Shown one piece after another: positions 42,330 through 42,494 of a DNA stretch of 64,000 nt (its first letter is position 1; each line of letters opens with the position of its first letter). Origin of the DNA: the human T2T-CHM13v2.0 reference genome, Homo sapiens; NCBI GenBank assembly GCA_009914755.4, contig CP068257.2:29088001-29152000 (forward strand). The letters run 5' to 3'. Position numbers and translations under genes: made by a program. The notes beneath the pieces were generated by a model, which saw only the letters and a program-made list of their open reading frames with translations, had not been told where the DNA came from and did not search any database.

Positions 42330-42494
42330 CAGAAAGACGTCTAGCATGCTCTGTAGCAAAATAGATAATTAGCCATTGCAAACACAGCCAGAATGAGAGC
42401 CATTGACACAGCCGTAGCTCGACCCATCACCACAGCCAGAGCCAGGGCTATATCCACAGCCTCCACAGGGATCTCCATAGTAGTAGCAATTCAC
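42330..42494 (-). pseudogene. KRTAP (HGT type 19/20/21-like) pseudogene: initiator ATG mutated to GTG, premature TAA, 1-nt deletion in the C-terminal tail
   Basis: The minus strand reads gtg aat tgc tac tac tat gga gat ccc tgt gga ggc tgt gga tat agc cct ggc tct ggc tgt ..., which translates V-NCYYYGDPCGGCGYSPGSGCGDGSSYGCVNGSHSGCVCNG* (stop at 42369-42371). The downstream ...tctattttgctacagagcatgc aligns to the ...ccactttgctacagaagatgc (RPLCYRRC) tail of the intact genes, with one base missing. Confidence 0.7.

What the first reader, a model, noticed from the sequence alone, without database searches (positions are those of the whole stretch)
42330..42494. KRTAP pseudogene killed by initiator-codon loss (ATG to GTG) plus a tail frameshift
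The minus strand carries a recognisable HGT-KAP coding remnant (VNCYYYGDPCGGCGYSPGSGCGDGSSYGC...). The position that is ATG in the intact genes reads GTG, the body is short, and a 1-nt deletion separates it from a still-alignable ...FCYRRC... tail. It is not in the ORF track because it lacks an ATG/TTG start and is shorter than 60 aa. A TATA-like element (ccttataattc on the minus strand) sits only ~35 nt upstream, implying a deletion in the 5'UTR as well.
Basis: seen in the sequence. Interest (0 to 1): 0.5.

Follow-up and report, generated by a model that had tools for sequence, protein, structure and literature searches.

The report
Old decayed KRTAP21-type hair-keratin pseudogene
This is an old, heavily degraded copy of a human hair-matrix (KRTAP21-type) gene on chromosome 21 that has lost its TATA box and start codon and picked up two stop codons and a frameshift; it is an ordinary pseudogene, although the published KRTAP catalogues I could read do not list it.

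Summary
[quoted passage not shown] Homology to the neighbouring intact genes runs collinearly from about 190 nt upstream of the start position through the 3'UTR (42683-42287), so it is not a composition artefact. Published hg18 coordinates identify the neighbours as human KRTAP21-2 and KRTAP21-1.

- **Start codon:** it reads GTG where the family has ATG, in all five same-species contigs I could retrieve.
- **Other lesions:** the family TATATAAA box reads CATGTGAA. The conserved Tyr codon of the CGYRP motif is an in-frame TAA. The frameshift is a 1-nt insertion, not a deletion. A second stop (TAT to TAG) lies in the tail, which reads FCYRAC, not FCYRRC.
it aligns to the 5'UTR of the intact genes and spacing is conserved, so there is no 5'UTR deletion.
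- **Cause of death:** the order of the lesions cannot be told from one sequence, so "killed by ATG loss" is unproven.

The locus is not HGNC KRTAP21-4P, which maps to the long repeat ORF at 20.7-22.2 kb. It is absent from the human, chimpanzee, macaque and gorilla catalogues I read. Its divergence points to an old KAP21 paralogue. Low interest.

The parts
42495..42683 (-). Decayed promoter and 5'UTR of the pseudogene, collinear with the KRTAP21-2 upstream region
   Evidence: Lenient blastn: 42396-42683 versus 26710-27007, 64.8% identity, E=2.5e-22. Local alignment score 22 against shuffles of 8.6+-1.4, 0 of 2000. MAFFT alignment A1.
42570..42577 (-). Position of the family TATA box; reads CATGTGAA instead of TATATAAA (box destroyed)
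   Evidence: Alignment columns. It lies 83 nt upstream of the GTG; the TATA box of KRTAP21-2 lies 87 nt upstream of its ATG.
42521..42525 (-).
   Evidence: It aligns to CCTCCTACACCTC (KRTAP21-2) and TCTTCTTGAAACCC (KRTAP21-1) 5'UTR sequence. TATAA frequency is 1 per 457 nt per strand.
42492..42494 (-). Initiator-codon position; reads GTG where KRTAP21-1 and KRTAP21-2 have ATG
   Evidence: The state is the same in five independent same-species contigs, L003-L005, L008 and L009.
42369..42494 (-). Body remnant, in family phase throughout: 41 codons, VNCYYYGDPCGGCGYSPGSGCGDGSSYGCVNGSHSGCVCNG, ending at an in-frame TAA (42371-42369) that replaces the conserved Tyr codon TAC of the CGYRP motif
   Evidence: The deletions relative to the intact genes are 75 and 84 nt, both multiples of 3. 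G+Y+C content is 59%, against 72% in the intact genes.
42361..42368 (-). Stretch that contains the +1-nt insertion (8 nt where the intact genes have 7), which puts the tail out of frame
   Evidence: The tail anchor sits at offset mod 3 = 2 in the candidate and 1 in both intact genes.
42341..42361 (-). C-terminal tail remnant TTT TGC TAC AGA GCA TGC TAG (FCYRAC*); the TAG replaces the TAT (Tyr) of the family's CYSSC ending, next to a 3-nt insertion
42326..42328 (-). Position of the ancestral stop codon (TAG here; TAA in KRTAP21-1)
   Evidence: Alignments.
42287..42325 (-). 3'UTR remnant homologous to the KRTAP21-1 and KRTAP21-2 3'UTRs
   Evidence: blastn E=3.7e-6. Lenient blastn E=3.6e-17. Local score 30 against 9.1+-1.4, 0 of 2000.

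Best explanation
The locus is a non-processed pseudogene of the KRTAP21 subfamily of high-glycine-tyrosine keratin-associated (hair matrix) protein genes. It is a genomic duplicate, or the relic of an old paralogue.

It lies in the human 21q22.11 KAP cluster, 7.5 kb upstream of KRTAP21-1 and in the same orientation. The whole single-exon unit is still traceable: core promoter, 5'UTR, coding region and 3'UTR, over 42683-42287. It carries at least five independently disabling changes:
1. The TATA box is destroyed (TATATAAA to CATGTGAA).
2. The initiator ATG reads GTG.
3. The conserved Tyr codon is an in-frame TAA (from TAC).
4. A +1-nt insertion follows just after that TAA.
5. The tail carries TAT to TAG.

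It also has 25-28 fewer repeat codons than its neighbours, and its Gly/Tyr/Cys composition is eroded. I infer that it does nothing and has been drifting neutrally for a long time.

What is shown: the homology, the lesions, the map position, and the absence from the catalogues I read. What is inferred: the great age of the lineage, the lack of expression, and inactivation before the catarrhine ancestor.
For: **Family and position.** The neighbours pass Pfam KRTAP PF11759 (31.6 and 24.2 bits against a cutoff of 21.1). Their best database relatives are named KAP21-1-like and KAP21-2-like. Their CDS coordinates and sequences equal human KRTAP21-2 and KRTAP21-1 in Wu 2008, with a single offset of hg18 = window + 31,014,577.

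**Homology of the candidate.** It covers promoter, CDS and 3'UTR.

**Lesions.**

**Not a retrocopy.** Homology continues upstream through and beyond the TATA position.

**No rescue.** There is no upstream in-frame ATG.

**Old lineage.** The upstream JC distance is 0.42-0.44 to both KRTAP21-1 and KRTAP21-2. That exceeds the 21-1/21-2 distance (0.35), which itself exceeds the human-horse and human-cat KRTAP21-1 distances (0.20-0.25).

**No surviving product.** The conceptual product has no relative in the 5.8-billion-protein index and no Pfam hit.

**Not catalogued.** Nothing is listed at this position in human, chimpanzee or macaque (Wu 2008) or in gorilla (Khan 2014).

**GTG is not a one-off.** It is present in five independent contigs of the same species.
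Against: - No orthologous sequence from another species could be obtained, so the age of inactivation and the order of lesions remain inferences.
- Absence from BLAST-based catalogues is weak evidence that the primate orthologues are also dead.
- Expression was not tested.
- The distance estimates rest on 160-190 aligned columns of poorly alignable DNA.
- The local placement of the +1 insertion depends on aligning TGGCTA with TGGCTA inside repetitive sequence. The net +1 phase shift between the two anchors does not depend on any alignment.
Confidence: 0.9

Rival explanations
1. It is a recent unitary loss: an intact KRTAP21-type gene that was inactivated in the human or ape lineage. The ATG-to-GTG change would be the first, killing hit.
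For: The initiator position is GTG. Khan 2014 states that humans have the most HGT pseudogenes among hominids. Wu 2008 lists the neighbouring KRTAP21p1 locus as intact in chimpanzee but as a pseudogene in human, so recent KAP21 losses do happen in this region.
Against: Five disabling lesions are present, together with a destroyed TATA box, about 33% divergence from every paralogue in non-coding flanks, and eroded composition. That is far more decay than a few million years would allow. No gene or pseudogene is listed at this position in chimpanzee, gorilla or macaque, although an intact orthologue should have been picked up by those BLAST surveys.
Confidence: 0.06
2. It is a live micro-gene: a 41-residue truncated KAP translated from the GUG codon, possibly driven by the nearby TATAA.
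For: A stop-free frame of 41 codons begins at the GTG. A TATAA lies 31 nt upstream, and an AATAAA lies 229 nt beyond the ancestral stop position.
Against: - A TATAA 31 nt upstream would place the transcription start at or beyond the GTG itself.
- That TATAA aligns to 5'UTR sequence and is expected by chance.
- The ancestral TATA box is destroyed.
- The frame ends at a nonsense change of a conserved Tyr, and the family-defining Cys-rich tail is lost.
- The product has no protein relative anywhere and no Pfam hit.
Confidence: 0.02
3. It is a chance resemblance: a GGC/TGT/TAT-rich simple repeat that happens to translate like a KAP.
For: The family is low-complexity, the tblastn E-values were computed without composition correction, and Pfam does not recognise the translation.
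Against: The non-repetitive promoter and 5'UTR, and separately the tail and 3'UTR, match the intact genes in the right order and at the right spacing. Scores are never reached in 2000 shuffles or by random genomic segments. Lenient blastn E-values are 1e-17 to 1e-22.
Confidence: 0.01
4. It is a processed (retrotransposed) pseudogene of KRTAP21-1 or KRTAP21-2.
For: KRTAP genes are intronless, so lack of introns does not discriminate between the two kinds of pseudogene.
Against: Homology extends about 100 nt or more upstream of the TATA position, into untranscribed promoter. The locus sits inside the cluster in the same orientation as its neighbours. Its divergence from 21-1 and 21-2 is about equal and large.
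Confidence: 0.01

Closest known systems
Human KRTAP21-2 (window 26563-26814, minus strand) and KRTAP21-1 (window 34751-34990, minus strand)
   Same: They share the same cluster, strand and single-exon layout. There is collinear homology of core promoter, 5'UTR, the N-terminal xCxYY motif, the Gly-Tyr-Cys repeats, the ...G-Y-(RP)-F-C-Y-R-x-C tail and the 3'UTR.
   Different: The candidate has no TATA box and no ATG. It has an in-frame TAA, a +1 frameshift and a tail TAG, and 25-28 fewer codons. G+Y+C content is 59% against 72%. Non-coding identity is only about 65-68%. The candidate's conceptual product fails Pfam KRTAP, which both neighbours pass.
KRTAP21-4P (HGNC, NCBI Gene 337986), which is KRTAP21p1 of Wu et al. 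2008
   Same: It is a KRTAP21-type pseudogene in the same 64-kb stretch of 21q22.11.
   Different: It is a different locus. KRTAP21p1 (hg18 31035969-31036805) maps to window 21392-22228, which is the 1.5-kb repeat-expanded ORF lacking an ATG, 5 kb below KRTAP21-2. The published promoter position of KRTAP21-4P (chr21:30,743,501; PMC8830042) falls about 1 kb upstream of that locus and 19 kb from the candidate. That conversion uses build offsets I recalled from memory.
Other catalogued 21q22.11 HGT-KAP pseudogenes (KRTAP19-9P, -10P and -11P; KRTAP8-2P and -3P; Rogers et al. 2002, as cited in PMC2528016 and listed in PMC12779367)
   Same: They are the same kind of object: short, intronless KAP gene relics scattered among intact genes of the cluster and disabled by stops and frameshifts. 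This is the definition used in Wu 2008.
   Different: Those have names and published coordinates. This one has no entry in the lists I could read. It is also more decayed than a typical catalogued one, which probably explains why protein-based BLAST surveys missed it.

Membership tests
HGT keratin-associated proteins (Pfam PF11759 KRTAP) | The protein matches the KRTAP profile above the gathering threshold | tested here: not met
   The conceptual product (frames repaired) gives no Pfam hit at E<=10. KRTAP21-2 and KRTAP21-1 score 31.6 and 24.2 bits against a cutoff of 21.1. This is expected for a decayed pseudogene, and it means membership rests on DNA homology.
KRTAP21 subfamily | N-terminal MCCNYY... 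and C-terminal CGYRP(F/L)C(Y/F)RRCYSSC(C/Y) motifs flanking Gly-Tyr-Cys repeats | tested here: met
   Degenerate but collinear remnants are present: (V)NCYYYG at the N-terminus, G-(stop, from Tyr) at the GY position, then FCYRAC(stop)TSFC(stop). In Wu 2008 file 6 the KRTAP20 sequences end ...YGRYW..GFY and lack this tail.
KRTAP21 subfamily | Homologous promoter, 5'UTR and 3'UTR, meaning common descent of the whole gene unit | tested here: met
   Upstream score 22 against 8.6+-1.4 (0 of 2000). 3' score 30 against 9.1+-1.4 (0 of 2000). Lenient blastn E=2.5e-22 and 3.6e-17.
KRTAP21 subfamily | Location in the 21q22.11 HGT-KAP cluster next to other KRTAP21 genes | tested here: met
   The window maps to human chr21 at hg18 31,014,578-31,078,577 through exact coordinate and sequence agreement of KRTAP21-2 and KRTAP21-1. 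The candidate lies at hg18 31,056,903-31,057,071 on the minus strand.
Pseudogene (non-functional gene copy) | Coding sequence disrupted by stops and/or frameshifts (the definition used by Wu 2008) | tested here: met
   GTG in place of ATG, an in-frame TAA, a +1 insertion and a tail TAG.
Pseudogene (non-functional gene copy) | No transcription or translation in hair follicle | not testable with these tools
   No expression data are available here. The loss of the TATA box only suggests it.
Processed (retrotransposed) pseudogene | Homology confined to the transcribed region, with a poly(A) tract and target-site duplications | tested here: not met
   Homology continues through the TATA position and about 100 nt beyond it.
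HGNC KRTAP21-4P (identity with the named pseudogene) | Same genomic position | tested here: not met
   Wu 2008's KRTAP21p1 maps to window 21392-22228. The promoter bin of KRTAP21-4P, chr21:30,743,501, converts to window about 23.1-23.3 kb using build offsets recalled from memory (SOD1 coordinates), which is 19 kb from the candidate.

The most novel reading that the evidence does not exclude
The relic is the last trace of a distinct, ancient KRTAP21 lineage, as old as or older than the KRTAP21-1/21-2 split. That lineage may still be intact in some non-primate mammals but was lost in primates and has escaped every KRTAP catalogue. Together with the second unlisted relic at 55.7 kb, it would mean that the ancestral HGT-KAP cluster was larger, and that primate hair-matrix gene loss was more extensive, than published counts indicate.
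Probability: 0.25. Interest if true: 0.3.

Novelty: new member of a known kind. Interest (0 to 1): 0.14.

Why it matters
It matters little on its own. KRTAP clusters are known to be full of pseudogenes, and humans have the highest fraction (PMC2528016; PMC4180150).

It has modest value for bookkeeping and evolutionary work. This relic, and the one at 55.7 kb, are missing from the published human, chimpanzee, macaque and gorilla KRTAP inventories I could read. Counts of gene birth and death in the HGT-KAP cluster that rest on protein-level BLAST therefore underestimate old losses.

It also shows that a TATAA near a dead ORF should not be read as its promoter without aligning to the intact paralogues.

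Tried and rejected
- **Database search with the candidate's repaired translation:** no protein shares three 5-residue words with it, so no intact orthologue could be found that way.
- **Exact look-up of KRTAP21-1 and KRTAP21-2:** neither is in the collection. Human and ape proteins seem to be absent, so names came from other mammals and from the literature.
- **Primate orthologous DNA:** macaque L001 ends at window about 36.5 kb, and Sapajus L002 covers about 6-29 kb. Neither reaches 42.4 kb.
- **Exact-product look-ups of small ORFs overlapping the locus:** the GTG ORF is not on record. The out-of-frame 45-aa ORF and the plus-strand 38-aa ORF returned only contigs 99.9-100% identical to the window. 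The plus-strand ORF was chosen because CAC and CAT are both His, so an ATG allele would also have been found. All are the same species and all carry GTG.
- **Zebra and snow leopard KAP21-1-like loci:** these are lineage-specific tandem duplicates of the KRTAP21-1 unit. No remnant aligns with the candidate, but that says nothing at about 66% neutral identity.
- **Rogers et al. 2002 (JBC):** not held.
- **Literature searches for coordinates:** three searches were fruitless or badly designed before the Wu 2008 supplement solved the mapping.
- **Orangutan 138-nt 'KRTAP21' entry:** considered as a possible intact orthologue and rejected. It lies about 70 kb from KRTAP8, whereas the candidate lies about 50 kb away in human.
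- **Rfam scan of 40-45 kb:** nothing.
- **blastn with default scoring:** it did not detect the upstream homology. Lenient scoring and shuffle tests were needed.

Full report
**What is in the sequence.** On the minus strand, 42494-42369 reads GTG AAT TGC TAC TAC TAT GGA GAT CCC TGT ..., which translates to VNCYYYGDPCGGCGYSPGSGCGDGSSYGCVNGSHSGCVCNG followed by TAA. One base further on, in the +1 frame, the sequence reads ...YLFCYRAC followed by TAG (42361-42341), then TSFC and a second TAG ending at 42326. Upstream in the same frame, a stop at 42515-42513 precedes the GTG with no ATG in between.

**The neighbourhood.** A six-frame scan for Gly/Tyr/Cys-rich frames finds five minus-strand features:
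- a 504-codon ORF without an ATG at 20720-22234;
- an 83-codon gene at 26566-26814 (geneA);
- a 79-codon gene at 34754-34990 (geneB);
- the candidate;
- a short remnant at 55775-55671.

GeneA and geneB pass the Pfam KRTAP model (31.6 and 24.2 bits; cutoff 21.1). Their nearest database relatives are named KAP21-1-like and KAP21-2-like in horse, fox, cats, deer, elephant and capuchin.

The supplement of Wu et al. 2008 (PMC2528016, Additional file 1, hg18) lists KRTAP21-2 at chr21(-):31041140-31041391 and KRTAP21-1 at 31049328-31049567. Both CDSs map onto the window with the single offset 31,014,577, and the protein sequences in their file 6 are identical to geneA and geneB. The window is therefore human chr21q22.11, hg18 31,014,578-31,078,577. 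Gene order in the literature is KRTAP20-3, 21-3, 21-2, 21-1, 8-1 (PMC12652779). Identities of 91% to macaque and 83-88% to capuchin agree with this.

**Is the resemblance real?** Protein-level similarity in a low-complexity family is weak evidence by itself (tblastn E about 3e-10 without composition correction). The decisive evidence is in the non-repetitive flanks.
- A three-way MAFFT alignment shows collinear matches from about 190 nt upstream of the start position to about 40 nt past the ancestral stop.
- The 130 nt upstream of the GTG align to the 130 nt upstream of the KRTAP21-2 ATG with local score 22. Dinucleotide shuffles give 8.6+-1.4 (none of 2000 reaches 22), and the best of about 1500 random genomic segments scores 16.
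- The tail plus 3'UTR scores 30 against KRTAP21-1 and 24 against KRTAP21-2, against about 9+-1.4 for shuffles (0 of 2000).
- With lenient scoring, blastn gives 42396-42683 versus 26710-27007 at E=2.5e-22, and 42287-42477 versus 34712-34895 at E=3.6e-17.

The candidate is a true homologue of the whole KRTAP21 gene unit. Because homology continues upstream of the transcription start, it is a genomic (non-processed) copy.

**The lesions, in 5' to 3' order.**
1. The family's TATATAAAGGTCT aligns to CATGTGAAGGTCT. The TATA position (42577-42570) is destroyed. It lies 83 nt from the GTG, against 87 nt in KRTAP21-2.
2. ATG has become GTG at 42494-42492.
3. The body stays in family phase. The last TGGCTA before the tail is in phase 0 in all three sequences, and the candidate is shorter by exactly 75 nt (versus 21-1) and 84 nt (versus 21-2). 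The next codon is TAA where both intact genes have TAC, the Tyr of the conserved CGYRP motif.
4. Between that codon and the TTTGCT anchor of the tail there are 8 nt instead of 7, which is a +1 insertion within 42368-42361. Independently of any alignment, the anchor sits at offset 2 (mod 3) in the candidate and 1 in both intact genes.
5. In the tail, RR has become RA, and the TAT of CYSSC is TAG, next to a 3-nt insertion.

In addition, Gly+Tyr+Cys content has dropped to 59% from 72%.

- The 'tail frameshift' exists, but it is an insertion, not a deletion. It lies downstream of an in-frame nonsense codon, so it is not what terminates the body.
- The TATAA at 42525-42521 aligns to 5'UTR sequence of the intact genes (CCTCCTACACCTC and TCTTCTTGAAACCC). 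The distance from the true TATA position to the start is conserved to within about 3-4 nt, so no 5'UTR deletion occurred.
- TATAA occurs once per 457 nt per strand in this AT-rich window, so one within 100 nt is unremarkable.
- With five lesions and no orthologue, nothing shows that the start-codon change was the inactivating event.

**Age.** In the 190 nt upstream, the candidate is 66-68% identical to both KRTAP21-1 and KRTAP21-2 (JC 0.42-0.44). KRTAP21-1 versus KRTAP21-2 gives 0.35. Human KRTAP21-1 versus its horse and cat counterparts gives 0.20-0.25, and the human-macaque orthologues give 0.02-0.07.

The candidate is therefore not a recent copy of either neighbour. I infer that it represents a separate KAP21 lineage at least as old as the 21-1/21-2 split, which itself predates the primate-carnivore-perissodactyl ancestor. 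These distances rest on short, poorly alignable DNA and are rough.

The time of inactivation could not be measured. The macaque and capuchin loci I obtained stop short of the candidate. The route through the macaque KRTAP21-1 orthologue was closed. Exact-product look-ups returned only same-species contigs, 99.9-100% identical, all with GTG.

Indirect evidence for an old death:
- the amount of decay;
- no gene or pseudogene is listed between KRTAP21-1 and the KRTAP8 loci in chimpanzee or macaque (Wu 2008) or in gorilla (Khan 2014).

An orangutan 138-nt 'KRTAP21' entry is about 70 kb from KRTAP8, which is too far to be this locus (expected about 50 kb).

**Is it already named?** HGNC and NCBI list one KRTAP21 pseudogene, KRTAP21-4P (Gene 337986; PMC12779367). 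Wu 2008's only human KRTAP21 pseudogene, KRTAP21p1 (hg18 31035969-31036805), maps to window 21392-22228, inside the long ORF without an ATG.

A methylation study places the KRTAP21-4P promoter at chr21:30,743,501 (PMC8830042). I used build offsets recalled from memory (SOD1 in hg18, hg19 and hg38), giving hg38 = window + 30,720,437. On that basis the promoter falls at window about 23.1-23.3 kb, roughly 1 kb upstream of the long ORF and 19 kb from the candidate.

So the candidate is not KRTAP21-4P. It has no entry in the human list of Wu 2008, and Khan 2014 counts KRTAP21 as 4(1) in the first species column of Table 1, which I take to be human. Whether GENCODE carries an unnamed pseudogene record here could not be checked.

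**Verdict.** This is a real, correctly spotted and correctly classified relic of a KRTAP21-type gene. It is an ordinary product of birth-and-death evolution in a tandem gene cluster. Its only novelty is that it seems to have escaped the published KRTAP inventories.

Noticed in passing
window 20720-22234 (minus strand): This is a stop-free ORF of 504 codons made of Gly/Tyr/Cys/Ser repeats (TRF periods 30, 60 and 90 nt over about 1.4 kb). It has no ATG. Its 5' end corresponds to about residue 12 of KRTAP21-2 and abuts sequence I read as L1 ORF2-like (22235-22330). It maps to Wu 2008's human pseudogene KRTAP21p1 and is probably HGNC KRTAP21-4P. Wu 2008 lists the equivalent chimpanzee locus as an intact 654-nt gene. 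Relative to capuchin, the block 19614-22230 is an insertion. The open frame is probably just a by-product of expanding a stop-free 30-nt unit, but the human/chimpanzee difference and a possible length polymorphism deserve a look.
   Followed up: partly
window 55671-55775 (minus strand), ATG at 55775: This is a second decayed HGT-KAP relic. It has an ATG, then MYSNYDTNSYGNCGCGLGYGYDVGSKSYPGLGCN, then TAA. Its 5'UTR is homologous to the KRTAP21-2 5'UTR at the same distance from the ATG (score 16 against 8.3+-1.2; 0 of 1000 shuffles). The TATA position again looks mutated, on my reading. It lies at hg18 about 31,070,2xx and is not in Wu 2008's human list.
   Followed up: partly
L001 (Macaca mulatta) 8033-18420, compared with window 27154-28584: Macaque has about 9 kb of extra sequence between the orthologues of KRTAP21-2 and KRTAP21-1. 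It holds at least one more KAP21 gene (start at L001:9857; the partial protein P0008 ends at 10144). Wu 2008 lists five macaque KRTAP21 genes against three in human, so copy number in this sub-cluster changes quickly among catarrhines.
   Followed up: partly
L006 (Equus quagga) and L007 (Panthera uncia): The KRTAP21-1-type unit (gene plus about 4 kb of flank) is tandemly triplicated in zebra and duplicated in snow leopard. Several database gene models (for example P0001, P0003, P0005) start at an upstream ATG and translate the promoter, so the TATA box appears as '...TVYKGP...'. These N-terminal extensions look like annotation artefacts.
   Followed up: no
window about 37.3-37.6 kb (expected position): Khan 2014's gorilla list has an extra 336-nt KRTAP21 entry 2.3 kb upstream of the KRTAP21-1 orthologue. 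The human window has no Gly/Tyr/Cys-rich frame at the corresponding place. That indicates either a gorilla-specific copy or an assembly artefact.
   Followed up: no
window 23080-23415: There is an AT-rich 12-nt tandem repeat (ATATATATATGA, 28 copies) inside a 2.3-kb stretch (22697-25008) that is absent from the capuchin locus. It coincides with the published differentially methylated 'KRTAP21-4P promoter' bin, if my build conversion is right.
   Followed up: no
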